The notes under the pieces: model-generated | What the model was told of the DNA's origin: nothing | The model's input: only the letters and a program-made list of their open reading frames with translations | The model's database searches: none | Made by a program: the position numbers and the translations under genes | Part shown: in pieces, positions 1 through 53,190 of the stretch | Position numbering within the stretch: the stretch's first letter is position 1 | Layout: every line of letters starts with the position of its first letter | DNA from: a virus | Virus record (IMG/VR): IMGVR_UViG_3300018059_000546 | Length of the DNA: 64,000 bases | Direction: 5' to 3' (one strand)

Positions 1-3000
1 CTTCGGTTCGAGAGAACGATCAGGGGCAGACAAGTCGGGTCCCGTCCCGGGGGCGTATATCTTCGGTTTTTTCAGCTTCTTAGCCTTCAACCCTTCCATG
101 TTCTCCACGAGAACATGGTGCATGTGACGGTAGTGGACAAATGGTTTACCCTTTCCGACGAGATCTATCGAATCGAACGCCTCAACCTTGATGAGTCCGT
201 CAAGAACTCTCTTGTTGAACTTCGAATGCTTCCACTCACCGGTCTCTGTCCACAGGAGATCGTTCACATCCTTGTAGGGACGCAACCTTTCAATCTCTTC
301 GACAGCGGCTTCACCGACGCCTTTCAAGGATGTGAACGACGGATAGAAAGTGTCTCCGCTCTTAGAGAGAGTCCAATCGTTTCCCGATTCGTTGATATCA
401 ACCTTGCCGATCTTGTAACTGAGCTTACGAACGTCTGTAGAAGCTCTCGCCTTCGATTCGTCATCGTTGGACATCGATTGCAGGTATGTGCAGAGCCATT
501 CAGGTTCGTAGTACGTCATGAGCCACGCGCACTGGTAGGAAAGCACAGAGTACGTCAAGCTGTGGGAATAGTTGAATGCGTACTTTGCGAACGCTGCGAT
601 ATCGTCGAACAACTTCTGTGCGATTTTCTCTTCGAGACCGTTCGCAATCGCTCCTGTGACGAACTGTTTTCCAAGTTCGATAGCTTCTAGGGCCTTCGAG
701 TCGATCTTGTCGACAGACCTCTTCAGAAGAGCCTTGCGAAGTTTGTCGCAATCTCCATGTGACATTCCTGCGAGTTGGTTCGCAAGCTGGATGATCTGCT
801 CCTGATAGACGATAAATCCGAACGTGGTCTCCAACAAACTGTCGATGACAGGGTGGTCGTACTTCTTGATTTCTTTCTCTCGACGAGCCTTGATGATGAG
901 CTTGTCGACTTTCGCTGCGAGCGGTCCGGGACGGTAGATCGCAGTGGCCATCGAAAGATCCTGCACGTTTCGAGGAGCGAAATCGTGGATGTACTTCTGG
1001 GTCTGAGGATTTGTGTACTGAAAGATGCCGGCGAATCTTCTAGTTTCGAACACGTGGTCGTAGACCTTCGGGTCGGACATCTCTCCGAGAGCCGCAGGGT
1101 GCAAGTTCTTCTCGTACCATGACTTGATATCTTCCCATGTGGGATTCGGATTGTTATGATGCCTCCGCAGGATCATCCTGATAGTATCTTCAAGCATCCG
1201 CAAAGTCTCAATACCGAGAATGTCGCTCTTCACGAATCCAAGCGGTTCGAGGCAGTGCATGTTCATGCCCTCGGGCCAAGGAGATCTCACCTCTCCCTTG
1301 ATGAAGATCAGGGGCATCTTTTCATCGAGGTCCTCGCAAATGACGACGCCCGAGGCGTGCTTTCCGATCGCTCGATTCTGCTTGTACAAAATCTTGATTG
1401 GTGCAGCTACTTGCGGATACTTGCCCATGAAGTCCCTGAATTTCTCGGAGAACTCCATGCAATCGTCGAACTTCAAGGAAAACAAGCTCTTGTTTTCTCC
1501 GTCGTTCGCTTTTGGCATCACCTCTTCGAGAAGATCTTTTGTGACATCGTTGACCTCTTCAAAGTCAATTCCATGAAGTTTTGAAAGATCCTTCACCAGA
1601 GACTTCAACTGAAGCGTGAGGAAGTTAGAAATCGGAACGACGTTTCTGGTTCCTGCTTTGTCTCTCAGGAGATCGAGAAGCTTGTTTCTATCAGAAACGT
1701 CGTTATCGATATCGGGCGTGTCGTTACGAGCGGGACTGATGAATCGTTCGAACATCAATCCGTACTTCAGGGGATCGATCTGCGTGATTCCCAAAACGTA
1801 ATTGACCAACGAACCGGCTCCAGAACCTCGGCCTGCACCGACGAGCATGTTATCGTAGGCGATATCCATGATGATCTTGGTGAGGAGAAAGTACTGCGAG
1901 AAATTCTTGTCCTTGATGATCGTCAGCTCGTACTTGAGCCGCTGCATGTACTCCTTTTTGCCCCAGAGATTTTTCTGTTGCATTCCGGTCTTGCAGTTCT
2001 CGTACAACGCTTCGAATGGCATTTGCCCAGGTGGGACGACGAACGATGGAAGTTTAATTCCCGTGTCCATCTTGATCGGATTGATCATATCATGGGCGAT
2101 GTCGTGCGTACGTTCGATCGCAGCGCGGACAGTTTCATCATCGTAGAACGGCATACCATTACAGTACTCGTTGTACGAATCCCACATCTGCCCAGCATTC
2201 TTCGGGTACAGCTCGCACTTCAACGCTTCCTTGGACTTGGGAAGCATATCAGGATTGATCTCTTCGTATCGAAGGCGACCCAACTTCTTGTAGATCTCTC
2301 TTTCGAGCCACAGTTCAGGTCGGCAGTAGTGAGAATCAGCTGCGGCAGTGAGTTTGATTCCCGTCTTGTTAGACATCTCAATGAGAGCCCGATTGACAAG
2401 ATGTTGCGGAGCGAGTTTATTGAACTGCAGCTCGGCGAATACGTTTTCTTCACCGACAGCGTCAACGATGGGATCGAATGCTCTTGCGAGTTCTTCCTGA
2501 ACCTCTCTCATCTTGGACGGATCGTCCAACAGCTCATGTTTGAGCTCGTCGAAAGGAACACCCTGGAACTTATCTAAGGTAGCGTACGCTCCGAAACCAC
2601 CGATGCACGCCGAGGTCACGATGATATCTTCGCCGTGCTCTTTCAACATCTTAGCATCGATTCGAGGAAACCTGTACATGCCCTCGATGTTAGCTCTTGA
2701 AACTAGCTTGAAGAGATTTTGGCGACCCTTGTCACTCTTAGCGAGGAGCACCATGTGGTGGCGTCTATTGACAGGATCTCTCCACTTGGAAACGTTCTTC
2801 GTTTCGTCTTCGTTCTCTGTCGTAGAGGCGTCGCTCTCATCGGATTCTTTAGCAAGTTTCTTCGACTCTTTCTTCGCGTCCTTCTTAGCTTCTTCCTTCT
2901 CGAACTTCTGCTTGCGCCAGTCTTCGAGACTCGGATGGTAGTACGCCTCGCATCCTGCGATTTGTTTGAACTCCCTTCCCTTCTTTTTCAGATCTTCAGA

Positions 3001-3174
3001 CTTGAGATAAGCCTGCGCAAAGGAGTTACAATTCCCATGTTCTGTGAAAGCCATCGCATCCATCCCGTTTTCAAGACAGAAGTCGATGTGCTCCTCAACG
3101 GGCCCGAGCCCATCGCTGATCGAGGCATGTGTGTGGCTGTGGAGATTAACGAACCTCTTCGGACTATCGCTCAA
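1..3174 (-). CDS. dnaE: DNA polymerase III alpha subunit (family C), 3' end outside window
   Basis: Absent from the ORF track (no stop in window). Manual translation from TTG at 3174: PHP start FVNLHSHTHASISDG...TEHGN, GAGRGSGAGSLVNYVLGITQIDPLKYGLMFERF, catalytic PDIDND, FAKYAFNYSH; the last codons at base 1 are still open. Confidence 0.95.
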   Translation of the reverse strand, partial: MSDSPKRFVNLHSHTHASISDGLGPVEEHIDFCLENGMDAMAFTEHGNCNSFAQAYLKSEDLKKKGREFKQIAGCEAYYHPSLEDWRKQKFEKEEAKKDAKKESKKLAKESDESDASTTENEDETKNVSKWRDPVNRRHHMVLLAKSDKGRQNLFKLVSRANIEGMYRFPRIDAKMLKEHGEDIIVTSACIGGFGAYATLDKFQGVPFDELKHELLDDPSKMREVQEELARAFDPIVDAVGEENVFAELQFNKLAPQHLVNRALIEMSNKTGIKLTAAADSHYCRPELWLEREIYKKLGRLRYEEINPDMLPKSKEALKCELYPKNAGQMWDSYNEYCNGMPFYDDETVRAAIERTHDIAHDMINPIKMDTGIKLPSFVVPPGQMPFEALYENCKTGMQQKNLWGKKEYMQRLKYELTIIKDKNFSQYFLLTKIIMDIAYDNMLVGAGRGSGAGSLVNYVLGITQIDPLKYGLMFERFISPARNDTPDIDNDVSDRNKLLDLLRDKAGTRNVVPISNFLTLQLKSLVKDLSKLHGIDFEEVNDVTKDLLEEVMPKANDGENKSLFSLKFDDCMEFSEKFRDFMGKYPQVAAPIKILYKQNRAIGKHASGVVICEDLDEKMPLIFIKGEVRSPWPEGMNMHCLEPLGFVKSDILGIETLRMLEDTIRMILRRHHNNPNPTWEDIKSWYEKNLHPAALGEMSDPKVYDHVFETRRFAGIFQYTNPQTQKYIHDFAPRNVQDLSMATAIYRPGPLAAKVDKLIIKARREKEIKKYDHPVIDSLLETTFGFIVYQEQIIQLANQLAGMSHGDCDKLRKALLKRSVDKIDSKALEAIELGKQFVTGAIANGLEEKIAQKLFDDIAAFAKYAFNYSHSLTYSVLSYQCAWLMTYYEPEWLCTYLQSMSNDDESKARASTDVRKLSYKIGKVDINESGNDWTLSKSGDTFYPSFTSLKGVGEAAVEEIERLRPYKDVNDLLWTETGEWKHSKFNKRVLDGLIKVEAFDSIDLVGKGKPFVHYRHMHHVLVENMEGLKAKKLKKPKIYAPGTGPDLSAPDRSLEPK

Positions 3175-3425
3175 TTATTCTCTCCCAAAATTTCCCATCG
3201 TGTAGATTCACTGTGGCTGTCGTGAACATGGTACACCCTGCCCGACATGAACATGAAGTGATCTTCACCATCGCCCCCAAGGTACAGTGCCTCGAGCCCG
3301 CCTGCATGGATCAGATCAGTTGACCCGAATGTCTCTTGACGAGCAACCCACATATGACCTATCCTACAGCGTACTAGGTCTCCAGTACCTAGCTCATCCA
3401 AGTAGTAGACTTTTTTCGCCGCCAC
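3171..3425 (-). CDS. hypothetical protein
   Basis: 84-aa ORF; its stop overlaps the dnaE start (TTGA). Confidence 0.6.
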   Translation of the reverse strand: MAAKKVYYLDELGTGDLVRCRIGHMWVARQETFGSTDLIHAGGLEALYLGGDGEDHFMFMSGRVYHVHDSHSESTRWEILGENN

Positions 3426-3470
3426 ACTCTAAAGGTATGCTAAAAACGTCAAAACAACCGTCTTAAAGAA

Positions 3471-4484
3471 TCAGAAATTCTGATCGAGCTCGATCGAAAA
3501 ATAGTCGATCGTACGCCTGATTCCTTCTTCGAAGGAAATCTCCGGATTCCAGCCTAGAACTTCTTGAGCAACTTTGATCGTAGGATTCCTACGCTTAGGA
3601 TCGTCCTGTGGAAGCGGGAGATAGGTCACCTTCGAAGTGGAACACATCGTTCGAACGATGAACTCGGCAGCTTCTCCAATTGTTCTTTCTTGCGGGTTTC
3701 CAAGGTTGATCGGAAAAGAATGCGGTTCGTCCTTGTGGAGGTAAGAGATGATTCCTCGAACGAGGTCGTCCACGTAGCAAAAACTCCTAGTTTGGGTTCC
3801 GTCTCCGTAGATCGTGATATCTTGTCCACAGAGAGCTTGGACCACGAAATTAGAAACTACTCGACCATCGTCGACCTGCATTCGCGGTCCGAAAGTATTG
3901 AATATCCGAACGACTCGTACATCGTGCCCCCTTTGAAGATGTTCGTAGCAGATAGTTTCTGCGACGCGCTTCCCTTCGTCGTAATTCGCTCGCGGACCCC
4001 ACGTATTGACGTGACCCTTGTACGATTCCTCCTGCGGATGAACCTCAGGATCTCCGTAGATTTCGCTCGTAGAAGCGTGAAGAACTCTGGAACCCAGGGC
4101 TGCGAACTTCATCGCAGTTTTCGTGCCCACGTAGCATGTATCCAGAGTTCCCATCGGGTCTTTTTGGTAGGCGACTGGTGAAGCGGGACAGGCGAGATTG
4201 AAATATGCGAAGGGTGCTTCACCTCGAGTGAAAGCTAGAACCTTTTCAACCAGAGTGGGTGAACACACATTCTCTTGGATCGTCCACAGAATTTGTCCCT
4301 TCGCAGATGCGAGAATAGATGCTTCGTCAAGATTCTTCCATCGACCTGTGCAGAGATTATCCACGCAGACGACATCGAAACCTTGTTCTATGAGAGAAAG
4401 AGTCAAGTGACTGCCGATGAATCCGGCTGCGCCGGCGATGACCGCGATTTTTCTAGAACTCAAGATACCTCTTCGAGAAACCAT
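3471..4484 (-). CDS. uxs: UDP-glucuronate decarboxylase (UDP-xylose synthase), extended SDR
   Basis: GAAGFIGSHL, LACPASPVAYQ, HASTSEIYGDP, YDEGKRVAET, RIFNTFGPRM..DDGRVVSNF, QTRSFCYVDDL. Confidence 0.9.
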   Translation of the reverse strand: MVSRRGILSSRKIAVIAGAAGFIGSHLTLSLIEQGFDVVCVDNLCTGRWKNLDEASILASAKGQILWTIQENVCSPTLVEKVLAFTRGEAPFAYFNLACPASPVAYQKDPMGTLDTCYVGTKTAMKFAALGSRVLHASTSEIYGDPEVHPQEESYKGHVNTWGPRANYDEGKRVAETICYEHLQRGHDVRVVRIFNTFGPRMQVDDGRVVSNFVVQALCGQDITIYGDGTQTRSFCYVDDLVRGIISYLHKDEPHSFPINLGNPQERTIGEAAEFIVRTMCSTSKVTYLPLPQDDPKRRNPTIKVAQEVLGWNPEISFEEGIRRTIDYFSIELDQNF

Positions 4485-18741: not shown

Positions 18742-19190
18742 TTTCCCGTCGATCCGAATCCTGAATCACCCCGGTCAGTCTGTTTCAGTTCTCCAATGCA
18801 AATTTCCGGTTGCGCGGTCATGTAAAAGACCATCTGTGCGATACGATCGCCGGCTTTGATGAAATAATCGAGATCCGATCTTGTATTACGAAGCATGACA
18901 ACGAGTTCTCCACGATACCCTGGATCAACGATCCCACCCACAGGATGAATGCCCTTCGCTGCGAGGCCAGAACGACCCTCGATCTTCGGAAAAATGGCCA
19001 TTGCTGACGTAGTGCTCGCTTCGCTGAGAGGGTCGAATCCTCCGTAAGCAATTCCCGTACGAACTTTTGTGACTGTACCTTCGGCAAGGTTGCAATCTTC
19101 TAATGCGTAAAGGTCGTATCCTACGTCAGTCTCGTGGGCCTTGGTGGGAAGCTTTGCTTTCTCACTTAGTAACTTGAACATCGCTCGCAT
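18738..19190 (-). CDS. dut: trimeric dUTPase
   Basis: GYDL, GRSGLA, GIVDPGYRGE, GDRIAQ, RGDSGFGSTG. Confidence 0.95.
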   Translation of the reverse strand: MRAMFKLLSEKAKLPTKAHETDVGYDLYALEDCNLAEGTVTKVRTGIAYGGFDPLSEASTTSAMAIFPKIEGRSGLAAKGIHPVGGIVDPGYRGELVVMLRNTRSDLDYFIKAGDRIAQMVFYMTAQPEICIGELKQTDRGDSGFGSTGK

Positions 19191-20127
19191 TTTGACTCTC
19201 CAACGCTGCTTTCTTGATGTCTCGTTCCGCTTGTGCTGGAGACTTCACCAACGCAATTTCAAGAAGAAGTTCAAGTTTTTCCTTGTACTTTTCGTCTGTC
19301 CAGAGTTCGTTGAACTTCTCTTTGTAGAACTTCTTTTCATGAGAGAACTTCTCGTCTTCGTGATCCTTCAATGACGTTGCAGTCGTGAAGCTCTTCCATG
19401 CTCCCTTGCCCGAGATTGCCACGAACTCACCGTTAATTTCCTGTGGACCATGAGCGTCGCAATATTCTCTCAGAACGTCGAACATCTCCTCATGGTCTTT
19501 GAGACCAACTCCGAAAATGATTTGAAAACTTGCACGTCTAAAAGGTGCGGCAACTTTGTTTTTGATGAGTTTTGCTTCGACGTTGATGCCGATGAGCTCC
19601 CCGTTCTTTTCAATCTTGCTGCCGCCGATCAGTTGGATCCGAGTCGAAGCATGGAAGGGAATCGCCATACCTCCGGAGGTCGTCGTTGGGTCGCCGTAGA
19701 TTGTATTGTGAGAAAGTATACCATTTGAAAAATAATTGTGATTTTTTTCTACTTCGATATCTAGCACATCCATCATCTCATCGACGAGATGAATGCTCGC
19801 AGCGGTCCATTCTTTTCCGTCGAAGACTTCGAAATTCTTTACATCTAAAAGTGCAGTTGCTTCTACCCAATGCGGTTTTGAACTTTCTATTTTTACATAG
19901 AACGAATGCAACGGAGACACTTTTACTTCAGATTGGGTCGCATTCAAAACGTACTGTTTCGTTGCAGGTTTACGAACTATCTTCAATACGTTCGCGTAAC
20001 AAATTTGTTTTGTTTCAAAATCGAACGATTTTATTTTGAATTTCAGATGTGAAACATCTTTCGGATCGTCATACAACATTTTCGTATAATCGACGTCACA
20101 AAGTTTAAAAAATTCACTAATCTTCAT
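19162..20127 (-). CDS. recA: RecA/UvsX C-terminal half fused behind split-intein C-fragment
   Basis: Residues 1-141 are intein (ends YFSNGILSHN); then TIYGDPTTTSGGMAIPFHASTRI...KNKVAAPFR is RecA C-terminal sequence. Confidence 0.93.
   Translation of the reverse strand: MKISEFFKLCDVDYTKMLYDDPKDVSHLKFKIKSFDFETKQICYANVLKIVRKPATKQYVLNATQSEVKVSPLHSFYVKIESSKPHWVEATALLDVKNFEVFDGKEWTAASIHLVDEMMDVLDIEVEKNHNYFSNGILSHNTIYGDPTTTSGGMAIPFHASTRIQLIGGSKIEKNGELIGINVEAKLIKNKVAAPFRRASFQIIFGVGLKDHEEMFDVLREYCDAHGPQEINGEFVAISGKGAWKSFTTATSLKDHEDEKFSHEKKFYKEKFNELWTDEKYKEKLELLLEIALVKSPAQAERDIKKAALESQNASDVQVTK
19705..20127 (-). other. split intein C-fragment (141 aa)
   Basis: Block B VSPLHSF, block F VLDIEVEKNHNYFSNG, terminal HN followed by Thr +1. 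Confidence 0.9.
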
Positions 20128-21029
20128 TCAATATTTTCCTTTAGTGCAACACGAATTTTAGCAACTAATGCATCTAATTTTTCGTCTGTCAGCCCGCATT
20201 CCCATACAACGTAACGTCGAAATCCTGTTTTTTTAGCTAATTCTCTTTTGGCAAAATCTCGACGCATCATTTTTTTCTGTGTATCATTTATGGGTCCACT
20301 TTTATAAACGTCGGGATTGCAGTGCCAATAATCTCCGTGAACTTCTATCAAAATATTTGTCCCAACAATGTGAACGTCAAAATAGAAAGGTTTCAAAAAA
20401 AACTCTACTTCAAAATCGATATTTTCTCTTCGAAGCCTATCATGCAAAAAACGTTCAGGCTTTGTAGGCGTGCAGAACTTGTATGCATCTGGATTTCGTG
20501 TATTGACAGGAAGCCCTAGTTTGGTTATTAGCGATGCTATAGCTTTTTTCCCATGTCCGACTACACGAGAAATTTCCACAAAGTAAACATGTTGTTTTGC
20601 TAGTTCGATTATCTTACGAATATCATCTGGTTCGAATAAAGAATTGCAATACGGTATCTGCGGTATTTTGCATTTTTCGACGAACAGTTGATTATAGTGG
20701 CGTGATGAAAGTCCAACTTCTTTTCTAATCACGATTGGATTTACACAGCGTAGTTCCCAAAGTTCATCCAATCGATTTAGCTGTTTAGCTGTCAATGCTT
20801 TTCTTTTTGCTGTTTTAGCCTTTGATATTGCCTCGCGTCGTGAAAGTGGAAATACTTTTCCCGTATTGGATTTCGCAATCTTGGCGCATCTGCTAGGTGA
20901 ATGTTTTTTTCCTCGGCGAGATGCACCGTAACATTGTTTACTACAAAATTGTGCCGGCATCGTAACGACCAATACTCCGCAATTTTTACAAGCTATTTGT
21001 AGACGTGTTCGAAGACGACCCATTCTCAA
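20124..21029 (-). CDS. free-standing Vsr-like homing endonuclease between the recA halves
   Basis: TKPER...FDVHIVGTNILIEVHGDYWHCNP...RD..K; N-terminal CKNC..FCSKQC and NUMOD-like repeats; AT-rich; 4-nt overlaps with both recA halves. Confidence 0.85.
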   Translation of the reverse strand: MRMGRLRTRLQIACKNCGVLVVTMPAQFCSKQCYGASRRGKKHSPSRCAKIAKSNTGKVFPLSRREAISKAKTAKRKALTAKQLNRLDELWELRCVNPIVIRKEVGLSSRHYNQLFVEKCKIPQIPYCNSLFEPDDIRKIIELAKQHVYFVEISRVVGHGKKAIASLITKLGLPVNTRNPDAYKFCTPTKPERFLHDRLRRENIDFEVEFFLKPFYFDVHIVGTNILIEVHGDYWHCNPDVYKSGPINDTQKKMMRRDFAKRELAKKTGFRRYVVWECGLTDEKLDALVAKIRVALKENIE

Positions 21030-21724
21030 TCTCTGATTATATCTATTTCTGTATCAGGATGTACACACCCGATTTTGTATCGAATCTGGTTCAGGAGGAT
21101 GAAGAGCACGTTGCTACTTCCGATGAGTTGCGTGATTCGACGCATGCCCTTGCTGATCGCACGGGCAGCCTGACCGATTCCGTCCTTGTCGACTTCTGCC
21201 ATGATCTCCGCCTTCGGTGGAGTCGCGGCGACAGAGTCCCAGATGATCGTGACCGGAACGTCCTTATTCGCTTCCTTGACACGGGCGATCGTGCTTTCTA
21301 CGACCTTGAACACGTCTTCGATGCAAGAAGGTTCAGCATAGACGAAGTTCTTACCAACGTCGATACCCAGATCCGAGAGAGTTTCAGGATTGACAGCGTT
21401 TTCCGTGTCGCAGTAAATGACAACTCCGCCCATTCTCTGGGTAGAAATAGCTGCTTGAGTCGCCATGTGCGACTTACCGATCGAAGGAGGTCCAAAGATC
21501 TCAACGATCCTACCTTCGGCGTATCCCCCATTTCGACGATTGCTGATGGCGTAGTCGAGAAGTCGAGAACCCGAAGAGATCCACCTCTTCACGTGGGTGG
21601 GAGAGATATCTGTACCAAGATTCCAAGCGATTCTCGACTGGTGCTCTCTATTCAGAGCGTCGATCAGGTCCTGCGAAAAATCATCATTCGCGTTGTTTTT
21701 TGGTGCATCGCTCTTCTTAGCCAT
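21026..21724 (-). CDS. recA: RecA/UvsX N-terminal half ending in a 13-aa split-intein N-fragment
   Basis: GRIVEIFGPPSIGKS, YCDTENA, IIWDSVAA, LNQIRYKIG then CVHPDTEIDIIRD-stop. Confidence 0.93.
   Translation of the reverse strand: MAKKSDAPKNNANDDFSQDLIDALNREHQSRIAWNLGTDISPTHVKRWISSGSRLLDYAISNRRNGGYAEGRIVEIFGPPSIGKSHMATQAAISTQRMGGVVIYCDTENAVNPETLSDLGIDVGKNFVYAEPSCIEDVFKVVESTIARVKEANKDVPVTIIWDSVAATPPKAEIMAEVDKDGIGQAARAISKGMRRITQLIGSSNVLFILLNQIRYKIGCVHPDTEIDIIRD
21029..21067 (-). other. split intein N-fragment (CVHPDTEIDIIRD)
   Basis: Intein block A pattern (C-h-x-x-D-T-x-I) begins exactly where RecA similarity breaks off. Confidence 0.85.
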
Positions 21725-21774: not shown

Positions 21775-22542
21775 TTAAAATTGGGTCAAAATCTCGTATC
21801 CTGTTGCAGTAACAAGTATGGTATGTTCCCATTGAGCTGACAAAGATCCGTCGACAGTTCTAACTGTCCATTCGTCCGAATCGATTTGTATTTCAGAACT
21901 GCCCACGCATACCATGGGTTCTATTGTAAAAGTCATACCCGGCTGCAATCTCATTCCGGTCCCACGAGTTCCGTGATGGAATACTTGCGGCGGTGTATGG
22001 AATTTTCTTCCGATACCGTGCCCTACGAACTCTCGAACGACGCTGAAACCTTCGCGTTCGACGAACTCTTGGATCGTGGCACCGATATCTCCCAACCTTG
22101 CACCGGGTTTGACCTGCTCAATGCCCATTTGGAGGGCGCGCTCGGCCACCTCGGTGACACGCTGTGCGTCTTTCCCAACCTTGCCGATTAGGAATGTGGC
22201 AGACGTATCTCCGTGAAACTGGTCGTAAATAGATGTCACGTCAACATTGACAAGATCTCCAGATTTCAGCTTGACTTTTCCGGGAATTCCGTGGCACACG
22301 ACGTGATTAATCGACGTGCAACAACTCTTGGGAAATGGCGGAAGAGTTCCGCCCGCTCCCCTGTATCCCAAAGGAGCAGGAATCGCACTTCGACTTAGAG
22401 TGAAGTCGTGAACGAGTGTGTTGATATCGTCCGTCGTCATACCTTCACAGATCGTGCGGCGAACGAGCGAAAGGGTCTCGGCCGCTAAACGACCGGAGAC
22501 CCTCATCGCATCGATTTCTTTCTGAGACTTGATTTCTATCAC
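21775..22542 (-). CDS. map: methionine aminopeptidase type I
   Basis: CTSINHVVCHGIP, NVDVT, HGDTSAT, GHGIG..FH, TIEPM, SAQWEHT. Confidence 0.96.
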   Translation of the reverse strand: MIEIKSQKEIDAMRVSGRLAAETLSLVRRTICEGMTTDDINTLVHDFTLSRSAIPAPLGYRGAGGTLPPFPKSCCTSINHVVCHGIPGKVKLKSGDLVNVDVTSIYDQFHGDTSATFLIGKVGKDAQRVTEVAERALQMGIEQVKPGARLGDIGATIQEFVEREGFSVVREFVGHGIGRKFHTPPQVFHHGTRGTGMRLQPGMTFTIEPMVCVGSSEIQIDSDEWTVRTVDGSLSAQWEHTILVTATGYEILTQF

Positions 22543-22791
22543 TCAAAGACTCTTCATGAAGTCGCCATTCAAAACGCACGACACTGTAAAAAGTTTTTGC
22601 CCAGCACCAAAGAAGACCAAAATGTTTCCGAATTTTGAATCATCCCAGCCCGGCGGGCCTCCGAGATCTGAAAAGAAATTCCCAGGATTTTCGATCTCGC
22701 CTGCTAGGACTGCTACGGCTCCCCGTGGGAGTTCTTTCATGTGGCCACAAGTGGCTAAAAACCACCACGATTGTTGCAACAGGAAAATCAA
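22543..22791 (-). CDS. hypothetical protein
   Basis: Fills gap between Pth2-like gene and map; start uncertain. Confidence 0.5.
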   Translation of the reverse strand: MIFLLQQSWWFLATCGHMKELPRGAVAVLAGEIENPGNFFSDLGGPPGWDDSKFGNILVFFGAGQKLFTVSCVLNGDFMKSL

Positions 22792-23126
22792 GACAACGCC
22801 AACTTCAAATGAAGCAAGAACTCTCTTGATGCTGAATCTGTTGCGAAAGCCGTAAGACTATCATCTAGATCGGGTTCTCGAAACATCGAAACTCTCATTC
22901 CTTTTCTCGTGAGCCTATCGATCATCTTGAGAAGAGCCACTTCGTTATCGACCTTCAAGAAGGCGATGTGGTTAGAGGCTTCGAACCAATCCTGTTCCAC
23001 CTTGGGGAATTCAGAGATGAACTGCCTCATGGCGTGCATGCCCTGGACCGCTTGGGGACCTGGAGCGAGATCGCTTCGAACGACAACGAAGAACTTGTCT
23101 CCGTGCTTTACTGTTGGCTGATCCAT
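22788..23126 (-). CDS. peptidyl-tRNA hydrolase 2 (Pth2)-like protein
   Basis: VVVRSDL.PG.QAVQGMHA...IAFLKV.NE..L...FREPDL...LTA fits Pth2-fold spacing; GAGGAGG SD before ATG 23126. Confidence 0.75.
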   Translation of the reverse strand: MDQPTVKHGDKFFVVVRSDLAPGPQAVQGMHAMRQFISEFPKVEQDWFEASNHIAFLKVDNEVALLKMIDRLTRKGMRVSMFREPDLDDSLTAFATDSASREFLLHLKLALS

Positions 23127-23482
23127 TCGATCAGCACCTCCTCGCTGTGGTACTTCTCCTGCCAAGGACTGACATAGTGCTTTACAAGCCTGGTCAGTTC
23201 TGCAGCAGAAACCTTCTTTTGTACCGACGTCGATTTCTCGATCGTCTTGTAATTCATCCCTTTGAGGTAAGCCCTTACGAGGTTGAGGTAGCGCACCTCA
23301 GACTTCATCTCGAGCAGTTGCATCGCAACTTTCTCTCGCAGGGTTTCTACCTTGCGCAGGCTCTTCCGTTTCCTAATCTCCTCAGAGAGAGATCTCACAT
23401 GAGCCCTAAACGAGATCTTGCGAGCAACGGAAACCGTGTAATACATCTTATTCTTATCGTTCATCATAGCATCCTCCATCAA
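23108..23482 (-). CDS. basic helical hypothetical protein upstream of Pth2-like gene
   Basis: 124 aa; GGAGG SD before ATGATG at about 23467. Confidence 0.7.
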   Translation of the reverse strand: MMEDAMMNDKNKMYYTVSVARKISFRAHVRSLSEEIRKRKSLRKVETLREKVAMQLLEMKSEVRYLNLVRAYLKGMNYKTIEKSTSVQKKVSAAELTRLVKHYVSPWQEKYHSEEVLIEWISQQ

Positions 23483-23559
23483 TCGTTTAGCATCTTCAAA
23501 ATTGTTTTAGAATCTGAAGATGACGGAGGACCTCTGCAGTGCTACCAGAAATTCAACAT
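23479..23559 (-). promoter_or_regulatory. leader ORF MLNFW*HCRGPPSSSDSKTILKMLND* (in-frame UAG, RGPP motif)
   Basis: GAGGAG SD 8 nt before ATG 23559; UAG at 23544-23542; final TGA overlaps an ATG of the next gene. Confidence 0.55.
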
Positions 23560-23894
23560 ATCTTTGCTCCTCGACCCGAAATCGAGACTCCGGTTGCTGA
23601 ACAGTACGACGTCGGCTCCCGGTCCCAAAACCCCCAACGAGTCGTCCCATCAATACGGTCGAGCATTTCTTTACGAAGCTTGTCTCGAGCAGCACGATCG
23701 GTGTCAGTGGGAGTAGCAGTCAGGATCTCCTTCTTTGGTTCTCCTGGCGGCTCGGGCGGAACGATTCCTGTGACGTTGACAAAAACGAGGTTAAGATGTT
23801 GTTTGAGCATCTTCACCTGAGATTCGTTCAGTTCTTTTGGATCTCCCATTTCGAGAAACCCCTGCAACCAGTAGCAAAAATCCTGTGAGTTCAT
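23553..23894 (-). CDS. hypothetical protein, FCYWLQG family
   Basis: MNSQDFCYWLQGFLE; ATGA-coupled. Confidence 0.7.
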   Translation of the reverse strand: MNSQDFCYWLQGFLEMGDPKELNESQVKMLKQHLNLVFVNVTGIVPPEPPGEPKKEILTATPTDTDRAARDKLRKEMLDRIDGTTRWGFWDREPTSYCSATGVSISGRGAKIC

Positions 23895-24115
23895 TTCGTT
23901 CTTTCGTTGGAAAGTGAGCACGTGAGGATGCCCAGACCTTTTGCGAACGGTGAACTAGATCTGAACCCGATCGCACCCTCAGTAGGTTTAGAATCTTTCT
24001 TGAGAGCGACTTCGAGCTTGCTCTGAATGATTCCTGCTTCGCGAGCAGAAATTCCATCGCTCCCCGCGATATCAAAATAGCCCTGAAGCCAGTAGCAGAA
24101 TTCGTTCGGAGTCAT
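23891..24115 (-). CDS. hypothetical protein, FCYWLQG family
   Basis: MTPNEFCYWLQGYFD; paralogue of neighbour. Confidence 0.7.
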   Translation of the reverse strand: MTPNEFCYWLQGYFDIAGSDGISAREAGIIQSKLEVALKKDSKPTEGAIGFRSSSPFAKGLGILTCSLSNERTK

Positions 24116-24360: not shown

Positions 24361-24576
24361 CTACCACGGATGCTCGTCTTCGGTAGATTCATCGATGACA
24401 TCGTCGCTCTTGAATCGAGTGTACGACAATCCCTCGTTTTTGACGAGCTTGATAACGATGATTCCTCCAAGAGCGAAGGGGCCTTCGTAAATATCCCATC
24501 CGTCAGTAAGAAGTTTCTCAATTTCGGGTTCCTTCGAAAGGAACTGACCCATCTCGGCCATGATTAATTTTTGCAC
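24361..24576 (-). CDS. hypothetical protein
   Basis: 71 aa. Confidence 0.55.
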   Translation of the reverse strand: MQKLIMAEMGQFLSKEPEIEKLLTDGWDIYEGPFALGGIIVIKLVKNEGLSYTRFKSDDVIDESTEDEHPW

Positions 24577-24770: not shown

Positions 24771-24867
24771 CTTTGTTCTTCTTTCTGAGTACAGTAGCGC
24801 CCTCGGCGGATCCTGCCACCACATTGTCCATTTTAGAGATGGATGCTTTGCTTTTAAGCTACGAGGG

Positions 24868-24896
24868 CAAAAACTAGAGAGCCCCTTTCGGGGCTC
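24868..24896 (-). terminator. intrinsic terminator
   Basis: Minus strand GAGCCCC-GAAA-GGGGCTC followed by TCTAGTTTTT. Confidence 0.75.
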
Positions 24897-24905
24897 CCTT
24901 ACGTT

Positions 24906-25082
24906 CTAGTGGCAGCACGTTGCGATAGTTTGAAGGAAAAAACCCAAACCAATCAGCAGATAAATCATCGTGTGCGCGTTCTTACAATCGCATCCGCAAT
25001 CAGAAGTCGACTCCTTTTCAGAATTAAGCTCTCCTTGATTTTCAGGATGTTCTCTCGAAGGATGTTCACCGCAAGTAATCAT
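24906..25082 (-). CDS. 58-aa protein with C-terminal hydrophobic segment
   Basis: ATGA overlap with SSB stop; ends MIYLLIGLGFFLQTIATCCH. Confidence 0.4.
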   Translation of the reverse strand: MITCGEHPSREHPENQGELNSEKESTSDCGCDCKNAHTMIYLLIGLGFFLQTIATCCH

Positions 25083-45876: not shown

Positions 45877-46302
45877 TCAATGGAATCCACATTCTGGACA
45901 AGGTTCGTTCGGATCGTATCCTTGATGTTTGCATTGTGGACATTCGAACGCGCCGCTACCATCATCTGGTTCACACAATTCGCAAAACTCATCATTCGGA
46001 TTAGCAGTTTGAGATCCGCAACCAGCACATGGATTGTCTTTATGAGGATCATGTCCACAATCAGGACAAGACCAGTCTTTTGTGGGTATGTTCTTTCGAT
46101 CGCACTGTGGGCAATCCCACGCGTCGCGCTCGATTTCGTGGTTCATCAATTGTTTCTGAGAAAAGAACCTACATTGTTGGTTCGGGCACTCAACGTTGTT
46201 CATGCCTCCGATGTACGCACCTGGATGATTGCATCCGGGACAAACAGCCTCAGAAAGCACCCGCCGAACAATTTCTCGAAACTCTTTCAGGGTGGCTTGC
46301 AT
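45877..46302 (-). CDS. multi zinc-ribbon protein with putative virion-targeting leader
   Basis: MQATLKEFREIVRRVLSE then multiple CxxC pairs; TAGTTA upstream. Confidence 0.75.
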   Translation of the reverse strand: MQATLKEFREIVRRVLSEAVCPGCNHPGAYIGGMNNVECPNQQCRFFSQKQLMNHEIERDAWDCPQCDRKNIPTKDWSCPDCGHDPHKDNPCAGCGSQTANPNDEFCELCEPDDGSGAFECPQCKHQGYDPNEPCPECGFH

Positions 46303-52767: not shown

Positions 52768-53190
52768 TCATGCTGGTTCCCACCCACGACCTGGATTCCA
52801 AATGAACTCTCTTTGCTCGGGTCGATTGTTGTGCATGTACCCTCGCAAATTTCCTTCGGAGTCTTCGTACCAGCTATCGTCGTCTTTGTTACTTCCTGGT
52901 ATGTCCAACCATTGCTCAGCAGCTTCGGGAAAACTCTGCGAGACGTGTTCCCAGTTGTCGTAATCTCCTCCAAAATCGGGCGGAAACCTTGGATGTTGAT
53001 CTACAATTGGCGAAGCAAAAGGGCTTTGTACGGCGTCTGCCTAGCGTTTGTTATACAATTTACAATCTGGATTTGGACATTCAATGTCGTGTAAGCCGAT
53101 GTGTGCTTCAGAATCTCCGCATCGAGGGCAGACAGATTCACGGAGCAGGACCCTGATTGCGCTTCGAACTTCTGATATTAGAATTTTCAT
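52768..53190 (-). CDS. leader-bearing zinc-finger protein with in-frame UAG at codon 50 (readthrough gene or pseudogene)
   Basis: Manual translation MKILISEVRSAIRVLLRESVCPRCG...ECPNPDCKLYNKR*ADAVQ...RGWEPA; ATGA-coupled; N-terminus paralogous to 45877-46302. Confidence 0.75.

What the first reader, a model, noticed from the sequence alone, without database searches (positions are those of the whole stretch)
22788..23575. Amber-plus-RGPP leader peptide ahead of the Pth2-like/Map genes: candidate sensor of termination efficiency or suppression
Seen (not in ORF track): GAGGAG-8 nt-ATG TTG AAT TTC TGG TAG CAC TGC AGA GGT CCT CCG ... GAT TGA (23559-23479), i.e. MLNFW*HCRGPPSSSDSKTILKMLND*. The last stop overlaps an ATG and sits directly before the GGAGG SD of the next gene. 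Downstream are a basic helical protein, a Pth2-like hydrolase and Map. Known: RAPP/RGPP motifs are bacterial ribosome-arrest motifs (ApdA/ApdP/ApcA class), and very short ORFs promote peptidyl-tRNA drop-off that Pth resolves. Inference: only ribosomes reading through UAG (low RF1 or a suppressor tRNA) reach RGPP and the coupled start, tying expression of translation-rescue genes to termination status.
Basis: partly seen in the sequence, partly recalled or inferred. Interest (0 to 1): 0.75.

Follow-up and report, generated by a model that had tools for sequence, protein, structure and literature searches.

The report
Stop-codon-gated ribosome-stalling phage leader
A large uncultured phage places a tiny leader in front of a small operon (unknown helical protein, peptidyl-tRNA-hydrolase-like protein, probably methionine aminopeptidase); its ribosome-stalling Arg-Gly-Pro-Pro motif is reached only if a UAG stop is read through, so the operon is probably switched on only when stop-codon suppression is active.

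Summary
On the minus strand, ATG(23559)-TTG-AAT-TTC-TGG-TAG(23544-23542)-CAC-TGC-AGA-GGT-CCT-CCG lies between geneA and a 119-aa helical gene (geneB) that is followed by a Pth2-like gene and Map. All 11 independent related loci keep one frame: ATG, 1-4 codons, TAG, 2-5 codons, R-[G/D]-[P/S]-P. Arg uses five different codons, every indel is a multiple of three, and pN/pS is 0.17 in this frame against 1.1 and 1.6 in the other two. The Pro-Pro codons (CCUCC) pair with the geneB Shine-Dalgarno in every predicted fold. Where a tRNA gene is visible (6 loci), its anticodon matches the leader's stop: five CUA with TAG, one UUA with TAA. The window holds no tRNA, but one of its genes (52768-53190) carries an in-frame TAG where an uninterrupted homologue has Gln. 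Best reading: a suppression-gated RGPP arrest leader that unmasks the geneB start site. Nothing was tested at the bench. I found no paper describing this design. This scan has noted the same design before on other phage DNA (62 notes in at least 51 genomes). This window adds a single-UAG form, coupled to an upstream gene, with no suppressor tRNA nearby.

The parts
23553..23894 (-). geneA, a small protein ending ...GAKIC-TGA. Its stop overlaps the leader ATG (ATGTTGA).
   Evidence: The orthologous upstream genes all end Cys-stop, with the leader ATG overlapping or abutting that stop. PHROG hits of unknown function.
23567..23572 (-). GAGGAG Shine-Dalgarno-like sequence, 7 nt before the leader ATG
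   Evidence: GGAG/GAGG-like sequences lie 8-11 nt upstream of the leader ATG in most related loci.
23542..23559 (-). First part of the leader: ATG TTG AAT TTC TGG TAG (MLNFW-UAG)
   Evidence: An in-frame ATG lies 6-15 nt before the TAG in 11 of 11 loci, and every length is a multiple of 3.
23542..23544 (-). Gating stop codon UAG
   Evidence: TAG in 11 of 11 family loci although the flanking codons vary. It is TAA in L015, where the tRNA anticodon is UUA.
23524..23541 (-). Read-through part: CAC TGC AGA GGT CCT CCG (H-C-R-G-P-P). The arrest core RGPP is 23535-23524.
   Evidence: Arg codons are AGA/AGG/CGA/CGC/CGT, Gly GGT/GGC/GGA, and the second Pro uses all four codons. pN/pS is 0.17 in this frame against 1.06 and 1.56 in the others.
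23524..23532 (-). Anti-SD GGUCCUCCG (Gly-Pro-Pro codons), complementary to the geneB SD region
   Evidence: The MFE pairs it with the SD in 11 of 11 loci. The first Pro codon is always CCU (UCU in L003), a nucleotide constraint beyond coding.
23491..23522 (-). Inner hairpin CAUCUUCA...UGAAGAUG, enclosed by the anti-SD:SD helix
   Evidence: A hairpin sits at this place in most loci, with a different sequence in L004, L007 and L010.
23473..23477 (-). GGAGG Shine-Dalgarno of geneB
23108..23467 (-). geneB, a 119-aa basic all-helical protein of unknown function and the first regulated gene
   Evidence: Homologues are 39-91% identical. The AF2 model has pLDDT 90 and no convincing structural match.
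22788..23126 (-). Pth2-like gene (112 aa); its start overlaps the end of geneB by 19 nt
   Evidence: Pfam PTH2 E=1.8e-6. PDB 2zv3 Pth2 E=0.009. 44% identical to the L015 homologue.
22543..22737 (-). Small ORF (64 aa) between the Pth2-like gene and Map. This slot varies among relatives.
21775..22542 (-). Methionine aminopeptidase (Map)
   Evidence: Pfam Peptidase_M24 E=2e-50. It follows the Pth2-like gene in L004-L007 and L011.
52768..53190 (-). Gene with an in-frame TAG at codon 50 (53043-53041). It is independent evidence that this phage relies on UAG suppression.
   Evidence: The uninterrupted 205-aa homologue P0023 aligns to both halves (E=9e-47) and has Gln at the TAG position.

Best explanation
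This is a translational switch made of a very short leader ORF. Ribosomes start at ATG 23559, either through the GAGGAG SD or by coupling to the end of geneA.

Without suppression they terminate at UAG after five codons. The mRNA then stays folded, with the Pro-Pro codons CCUCC paired to the GGAGG Shine-Dalgarno of geneB, so geneB and the overlapping Pth2-like gene are poorly translated.

When UAG is decoded by an amber suppressor tRNA (probably inserting Gln), the ribosome goes on to R-G-P-P. That motif is the strongest known RAPP-type arrest core. [quoted passage not shown] The anti-SD then sits inside the stalled ribosome, which frees the geneB start site about 50 nt downstream. Relatives encode the suppressor tRNA next to the leader.

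Shown here: the conserved frame, codon-level selection, the pairing potential, the match between tRNA anticodon and leader stop in relatives, and one TAG-interrupted gene in this phage. Inferred: read-through, stalling, unmasking and the ON direction of the switch.
For: (1) One conserved frame, ATG-(1-4 codons)-TAG-(2-5 codons)-R-[G/D]-[P/S]-P, in 11 of 11 independent loci at 39-91% geneB identity.

(2) Selection acts on the protein after the stop. There are five Arg codons, three Gly codons and four codons for the second Pro. Leu follows the TAG as CTG/CTT/CTC, and Cys precedes Arg as TGC/TGT. pN/pS is 0.17 against 1.06 and 1.56 in the other frames.

(3) At least five indels (ATG-TAG spacing 6/9/12/15 nt; TAG-Arg spacing 6/9/15 nt) are all multiples of 3.

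(4) No start codon lies between the TAG and RGPP, so RGPP can only be reached through the stop.

(5) The R-x-P-P codons pair with the geneB SD or start in the MFE of 11 of 11 family loci, with z at or below -2.3 in 8 of them. L015 and L017 do the same with different sequences: CGUGGCC:GGUCAUG and CUCUCCU:AGGAGAG.

(6) tRNA(CUA) genes lie 25-800 nt upstream of the leader in L006, L007, L011 and L012, and downstream of the Pth2-like gene in L017. L015 has a TAA leader and a tRNA(UUA). That is 6 of 6 matches.

(7) This phage has a gene with an in-frame TAG aligned to Gln of an intact homologue.

(8) Literature: RGPP gives the most stable arrest with varied N-terminal contexts, is the most avoided tetrapeptide and is not rescued by EF-P; RDPP and RSPP are partly permissive (PMC12992588). 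A minimal RxPP is reported as sufficient for arrest (PMC10951233).

(9) No real protein in the 64-kb window contains R[GADS]PP.
Against: No tRNA gene occurs anywhere in the 64-kb window, and the rest of the ~350-kb genome could not be read. The suppressor of this particular phage is therefore inferred.

The core of the anti-SD:SD helix is invariant within the family, so the covariation test is uninformative. Three family loci fold no better than shuffles.

The nascent chain at the arrest site is only 9-12 residues. That is shorter than any tested RAPP arrest peptide I read about.

L003 has RGSP, which is not a known arrest core.

TAG also ends about 15% of ordinary ORFs in the window, so suppression must be partial or timed.

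No experiment was done.
Confidence: 0.6

Rival explanations
1. The architecture is the same, but the input is general termination efficiency at UAG rather than a dedicated suppressor tRNA. RF1 could be scarce, inhibited or modified during infection, or near-cognate read-through could suffice. Rare read-through events would be integrated by the long-lived RGPP arrest.
For: No tRNA lies in this window or within 3 kb of the leader in its four closest relatives. The stop is followed by C in 10 of 11 loci. From my own memory, not checked here, that is a weak termination context in E. coli.
Against: The anticodon matches the leader's stop in 6 of 6 loci where a tRNA is visible, including a TAA/UUA pair. 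This points to the tRNA as the input. The TAG-interrupted gene in this phage needs efficient decoding.
Confidence: 0.15
2. The polarity or purpose is different. Read-through plus arrest could repress the operon, for example by mRNA cleavage at the stalled ribosome or by blocking. Alternatively the stall could exist to produce a peptidyl-tRNA substrate or signal for the Pth2-like enzyme rather than to unmask the SD.
For: Stalled ribosomes can trigger cleavage and rescue pathways (general knowledge; PMC10897456 title and abstract). The link to a Pth2-like gene is conserved.
Against: The arrest codons are themselves the partner of the SD in every lineage, even where the sequences differ. That is the layout of ON-type arrest leaders.
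Confidence: 0.1
3. It is a minigene and anti-SD attenuator with no read-through. Translation of MLNFW-stop places a terminating ribosome next to the anti-SD and opens the helix, or drop-off from the minigene matters. RGPP would be a by-product of the CCUCC anti-SD.
For: The mini-ORF and anti-SD are both conserved. The UAG lies 13 nt before CCUCC in most loci.
Against: It does not explain five synonymous Arg codons, the Leu and Cys conservation after the stop, the in-frame 3- and 9-nt insertions between TAG and Arg (L012, L005), RGPP encoded as CGT GGC CCC CCT in L015, or the matching of stop and anticodon.
Confidence: 0.08
4. It is an untranslated nucleotide element (promoter, processing site or protein-binding site) that happens to read as ATG...TAG...RGPP.
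For: GTAGC and AGAGGTCCTCC are the best-conserved intergenic blocks.
Against: Variation is concentrated at synonymous positions in one frame. L012, L015 and L017 keep the stop and R-x-P-P with different nucleotides. No Rfam family matches.
Confidence: 0.03

Closest known systems
RAPP/RGPP-type regulatory arrest peptides (ApdA, ApdP, ApcA; SecM with RAGP; Streptomyces RAPP/RGPP uORFs). Sources: PMC7897499, PMC10951233, PMC12992588.
   Same: An R-[A/G]-P-P core at the end of an upstream ORF. [quoted passage not shown] The next gene's start site is paired with leader RNA. RDPP and RSPP variants occur, as among the partly permissive motifs.
   Different: The leader is only about 12 codons long, with no signal peptide or membrane segment, so it cannot monitor secretion. 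The arrest motif lies behind an in-frame stop codon. The downstream genes are a Pth2-like protein, an unknown helical protein and Map, in a phage. There is no sequence homology.
Phage stop-codon recoding and 'code-change modules' (Borges et al., bioRxiv 10.1101/2021.08.26.457843; code 15 crAss-like phages, PMC9523058)
   Same: Phage-encoded suppressor tRNAs that change how a stop codon is read during infection, and the idea that suppression times gene expression.
   Different: In those phages many genes carry in-frame stops and no sensing leader is described. This genome is essentially standard-coded, with one interrupted gene in 64 kb. The stop sits in a regulatory leader in front of an arrest motif.
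prfB (RF2) autoregulatory in-frame UGA
   Same: An early in-frame stop codon whose decoding efficiency sets expression (general knowledge).
   Different: prfB uses a +1 frameshift inside the coding gene and senses RF2. Here the reading stays in the zero frame, in a separate leader, and the output is SD unmasking.
ErmCL/ermC and similar leader-stall attenuators
   Same: A ribosome stalled in a short leader opens a hairpin that sequesters the next gene's SD (general knowledge).
   Different: The stall trigger there is a drug. Here it is intrinsic (RGPP), and access to it is gated by a stop codon.
Lambda bar minigenes and Pth
   Same: A very short ORF linked functionally to peptidyl-tRNA hydrolase (general knowledge).
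   Different: The bar minigenes are toxic through peptidyl-tRNA drop-off and do not regulate a downstream gene. No arrest motif or read-through is involved.

Membership tests
RAPP/RGPP-type ribosome arrest peptides | R-[A/G]-P-P (or a permissive RDPP/RSPP) core in a small ORF upstream of, and co-directional with, the regulated gene | tested here: met
   RGPP at 23535-23524. It is RGPP in 9 of 11 family loci and in L015, RDPP in L012, RSPP in L017 and RGSP in L003.
RAPP/RGPP-type ribosome arrest peptides | Leader RNA pairs with the SD or start of the downstream gene, so that a stalled ribosome frees it | tested here: inconclusive
   The pairing is in the MFE of all 13 loci, and it is kept with different sequences in L011, L012, L015 and L017. 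The formal covariation test within the family is uninformative because the core is invariant.
RAPP/RGPP-type ribosome arrest peptides | Measured elongation arrest (peptidyl-tRNA accumulation or toeprint) | not testable with these tools
   This needs in vitro translation or reporter assays.
RAPP/RGPP-type ribosome arrest peptides | An N-terminal localisation signal that lets the Sec/YidC machinery release the arrest (monitoring substrate) | tested here: not met
   The nascent chain is 9-12 residues at the arrest site, which leaves no room for a signal peptide.
Stop-codon-recoded (alternative-code) phages | Many genes with in-frame reassigned stops and low coding density under code 11 | tested here: not met
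   Long ORFs are intact under code 11, and TAG ends 12 of 80 ORFs. Only one supported in-frame TAG gene was found.
Stop-codon-recoded (alternative-code) phages | A phage-encoded suppressor tRNA | tested here: inconclusive
   None in the 64-kb window. One is present in six related or analogous loci. The rest of this genome is not held.
Pth2 (PF01981) peptidyl-tRNA hydrolase | Match to the family profile above Pfam's gathering score | tested here: met
   28.6 bits against a cut-off of 23, E=1.8e-6. M. jannaschii Pth2 (2zv3) gives E=0.009.
Pth2 (PF01981) peptidyl-tRNA hydrolase | Catalytic residues and hydrolase activity | not tested
   The alignment shows the conserved G-K of 2zv3 facing G-P here. 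I did not establish which residues are catalytic.
prfB-type autoregulatory recoding | +1 frameshift at an in-frame stop within a release-factor gene | tested here: not met
   The conserved peptide continues in the zero frame, and no release-factor gene is in the operon.

The most novel reading that the evidence does not exclude
The leader is a natural sensor of the cell's genetic-code state. A mostly standard-coded jumbo phage uses a UAG-gated RGPP arrest leader to express a conserved module (geneB, Pth2-like, Map) only once its amber suppressor tRNA is working. This gives 'orphan' phage suppressor tRNAs a defined regulatory target. It also implies that geneB and the Pth2-like protein handle the consequences of genome-wide stop-codon read-through.
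Probability: 0.5. Interest if true: 0.9.

Novelty: new variant of a known kind. Interest (0 to 1): 0.8.

Why it matters
Arrest-peptide leaders are known to sense secretion, drugs or metabolites. A leader whose arrest motif is hidden behind a stop codon would sense decoding itself. It would explain why standard-coded large phages carry suppressor tRNAs. It would supply a missing regulatory link for how phages switch a host cell between genetic codes. It would tie a widespread phage Pth2-like gene and an unknown helical protein to that switch. It would also be a compact natural part for synthetic biology: an ON switch that reports amber suppression. The RGPP stall on a 9-12-residue chain would test how little nascent peptide an RAPP-type arrest needs.

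Tried and rejected
- The whole genome is not held, and the 349-kb relative contig cannot be reached by handle. I therefore could not look for this phage's own tRNA(CUA) or for release-factor genes.
- IMG/VR scans with geneB, the Pth2-like protein and the geneB alignment found no relatives.
- geneB gave no hit by tblastn against GenBank phages and no usable ESM Atlas hit.
- The geneB structure model is confident, but Foldseek and VIA-align give only generic helical matches with Z at or below 6.1. Function remains unknown.
- The covariation test on the anti-SD:SD helix was uninformative because the core is invariant.
- Rfam at a permissive threshold found nothing in the leader or in the 245-nt gap after the Pth2-like gene. 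The tRNA-like look of that gap was rejected.
- A window-wide test of whether TAG-ended ORFs have longer in-frame extensions than TAA- or TGA-ended ones showed no clear signal.
- A whole-window screen for TAG-split long ORFs gave only two same-frame neighbours.
- LR756504.1 (L014) and L016 carry related genes but no leader or suppressor nearby.
- Mycobacteriophage Catera has no RxPP leader.
- A frameshift at the UAG was rejected because conservation continues in the zero frame.
- Full TAG reassignment was rejected.
Full report
**What is there.** All genes in this part of the window run on the minus strand.
- GAGGAG at 23572-23567
- ATG at 23559-23557, then TTG AAT TTC TGG
- TAG at 23544-23542
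- CAC TGC AGA GGT CCT CCG, with RGPP at 23535-23524
- a variable tail ending at TGA 23481-23479
- GGAGG at 23477-23473
- the ATG of a 119-aa gene (geneB, 23467-23108)

The leader ATG overlaps the stop of an upstream small gene (geneA, 23894-23553, ...GAKIC-TGA). Three genes follow geneB:
- a Pth2-like gene at 23126-22788 (Pfam PF01981, 28.6 bits against a cut-off of 23; PDB 2zv3, E=0.009)
- a small ORF
- Map at 22542-21775 (Peptidase_M24, E=2e-50)

Beyond Map lies a RecA gene. The window looks like part of a ~350-kb phage contig. It has GroES and many large ORFs. It has no tRNA gene. The code is standard, and TAG ends 12 of 80 long ORFs.

**Is it more than chance?** Homologues of geneB led to ten further independent loci with DNA: L001, L003-L008, L010-L012. 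Their geneB identity to the window is 39-91%, and all have the Pth2-like gene next door.

Every locus has, in one reading frame, ATG, 1-4 sense codons, TAG, 2-5 codons and R-[G/D]-[P/S]-P. The leaders read:

| Locus | Leader (hyphen marks the TAG) |
|---|---|
| window, L008 | MLNFW-[HL]CRGPP |
| L001 | MLTIW-LCRGPP |
| L003 | MLTLW-LCRGSP |
| L004 | MIFS-LCRGPP |
| L005 | MLTFM-LTLFCRGPP |
| L006 | MFW-LARGPP |
| L007 | MFM-LIRGPP |
| L010 | MLTFM-LPRGPP |
| L011 | MFY-LCRGPP |
| L012 | MK-IFCRDPP |

The variation is the kind expected of a translated peptide:
- Arg is written AGA, AGG, CGA, CGC and CGT.
- Gly is written GGT, GGC and GGA.
- The second Pro uses all four codons.
- Leu after the stop is CTG, CTT or CTC.
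- Cys before Arg is TGC or TGT.

Over the four RGPP codons, pN/pS is 0.17 in this frame and 1.06 and 1.56 in the other two. These are pairwise counts, not corrected for shared ancestry. The spacings ATG-TAG (6, 9, 12, 15 nt) and TAG-Arg (6, 9, 15 nt) differ only by multiples of three.

No start codon lies between the TAG and RGPP, so the conserved peptide can only be made by ribosomes that pass the TAG. The TAG itself is invariant while the codons on either side change. If TAG were just another Gln codon it should alternate with CAA and CAG. If it only ended a minigene it should alternate with TAA and TGA.

**The RNA.** The Pro-Pro codons CCU CCN form CCUCC, the complement of the geneB SD. In all 11 loci the minimum-energy fold of the stretch from TAG to the geneB start pairs these codons with the SD and encloses an inner hairpin. 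In 8 of 11 loci the fold is more stable than shuffles (z from -2.3 to -4.7).

The first Pro codon is CCU in 10 of 11 loci although the second varies freely. That is a nucleotide constraint on top of the coding one.

Within the family the helix core never varies, so a formal covariation test says nothing. In the more distant loci the pairing persists with other sequences:
- CCUC:GAGG in L011
- CUCC:GGAG in L012
- CGUGGCC:GGUCAUG in L015
- CUCUCCU:AGGAGAG in L017

A ribosome stalled with CCU in the P site and CCN in the A site would hold the anti-SD inside itself. The SD, 45-58 nt downstream, would then be free.

**The link to suppressor tRNAs.** ARAGORN and Rfam find a tRNA with anticodon CUA in four family loci. 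It lies 25-30 nt upstream of the leader in L011 and L012, about 500 nt upstream in L007 and about 750 nt upstream in L006. Compensatory changes in the acceptor and other stems show these are maintained genes.

Two much more distant loci that share the Pth2-like gene, and a geneB-like gene, keep the design:

| Locus | Leader | Order of genes | tRNA |
|---|---|---|---|
| L017 | MNNFF-TAG-IKS-RSPP | leader, geneB-like, an intervening ORF, Pth2-like | CUA |
| L015 (LR745208.1, a 485-kb phage) | MGAMHH-TAA-LPYC-RGPP, with RGPP written CGT GGC CCC CCT | leader, geneB-like, Pth2-like (44% identical to the window's) | UUA |

So in 6 of 6 loci where both can be seen, the leader's stop is the codon that the neighbouring tRNA reads.

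In this window's own lineage (window, L008, L001, L003, L004) no tRNA lies within reach. The rest of the genome could not be read.

It has an in-frame TAG at codon 50. The only homologue found, P0023, is an uninterrupted 205-aa protein. It aligns to both halves (E=9e-47) and has Gln opposite the TAG; a paralogue in the window also has Gln there. This phage therefore appears to depend on UAG decoding, probably as Gln.

**Mechanism proposed.** In the default state the ribosome translates MLNFW and terminates at UAG, the helix stays closed, and geneB and the overlapping Pth2-like gene stay low. When UAG is suppressed the ribosome reaches RGPP and arrests. The anti-SD is then occupied, the SD is exposed and the operon is on.

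The literature supports the arrest step:
- RGPP gives the most stable arrest with varied N-terminal contexts (PMC12992588).
- It is the most avoided tetrapeptide in many bacterial phyla (PMC12992588).
- It is not rescued by EF-P (PMC12992588).
- RDPP and RSPP are partly permissive (PMC12992588).
- A minimal RxPP is reported as sufficient for arrest (PMC10951233).

No real protein in the window contains R[GADS]PP. The steps from read-through onward are inference.

Why a Pth2-like protein, geneB and Map should be tied to suppression is open. One idea is that genome-wide read-through raises ribosome stalling and peptidyl-tRNA drop-off. The function of geneB is unknown: the model is confident, but no fold match is informative.

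**Rivals.** I considered four:
- Sensing of RF1 or general termination efficiency rather than a tRNA. This is possible for this lineage, but the anticodon matching argues for the tRNA.
- The opposite polarity, or a different purpose for the stall.
- A minigene and anti-SD attenuator without read-through. It cannot explain the coding conservation after the stop or the in-frame insertions.
- An untranslated motif, which the synonymous pattern contradicts.

**Comparison with known systems.** It works like RAPP/RGPP arrest leaders and like erm-type stall-and-unmask attenuators. It is not a secretion-monitoring substrate, because there is no room for a signal peptide, and it shares no homology with ApdA, ApdP or ApcA.

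It relates to the phage code-switch idea of Borges et al. (bioRxiv 10.1101/2021.08.26.457843). That work describes recoded genes and suppressor modules, not a sensing leader, and its text contains neither 'leader' nor 'peptidyl'.

Three literature searches found no description of a stop-gated arrest leader.

This scan has already noted the same design on other phage DNA: 62 notes in at least 51 genomes. Those notes are unchecked leads, not independent evidence.

This window adds four things:
- a single-UAG version
- coupling of the leader start to the stop of an upstream gene
- Map within the downstream gene run
- a lineage in which the suppressor tRNA has left the neighbourhood

**Verdict.** I class it as a new variant of a known kind, with high interest, pending bench tests.

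Noticed in passing
window 19162-21724 (-): RecA is fractured. The N part (21026-21724) ends in an intein-N-like sequence, CVHPDTEIDII. A 301-aa ORF with no Pfam match follows (20124-21029). Then comes an ORF with the Intein_splicing C end (...SHNT) fused to the RecA C part (19162-20127). Relatives L004 and L006 have an intact 398-399-aa RecA. It looks like a split-intein 'fractured gene' with a free-standing endonuclease-like ORF.
   Followed up: partly
window 52768-53190 (-): This gene has an in-frame TAG at codon 50. The uninterrupted homologue P0023 and a paralogue (45877-46302) both have Gln at that position.
   Followed up: yes
L013 (Mycobacterium phage Catera NC_008207.1) 1590-2680: In this lab-grown phage the GTG start of the Pth2-like gp153 is preceded in frame by ATG-TAG. 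An ATG-TTT-TAG minigene precedes gp152. ARAGORN reads a tRNA 250 nt downstream with anticodon CUA; the record calls it tRNA-Arg. There is no RxPP. This may be a different stop-gated form of the same theme.
   Followed up: partly
L015 (LR745208.1) 2484-3481: An ochre version of the design: leader MGAMHH-TAA-LPYC-RGPP, a geneB-like gene, a Pth2-like gene, then a tRNA with anticodon UUA.
   Followed up: partly
L017 605-1276 and 4981-5057: A distant locus with an RSPP/TAG leader also carries three tRNA-Thr genes, a tmRNA, a Thg1-like gene and a tRNA(CUA). It is a dense translation-related island.
   Followed up: no
window 24830-24899 (-): A strong terminator-like hairpin (24899-24876) is followed by a sigma-70-like promoter match (24857-24830). 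This is the syntenic place where relative L006 carries its tRNA(CUA), and it may mark the start of the transcription unit that includes the leader.
   Followed up: no
window 23553-24115 (-): geneA and the gene before it are paralogues that share an N-terminal F-C-Y-W-L-Q-G motif. Orthologues of geneA in relatives all end in Cys-stop, overlapping or abutting the leader ATG.
   Followed up: no
window 24361-24576 and 24906-25082 (-): Two small ORFs just upstream in the same gene run end in TAG and continue in frame into the next ORF. This could be chance (1 in 3 each) or read-through fusions.
   Followed up: no
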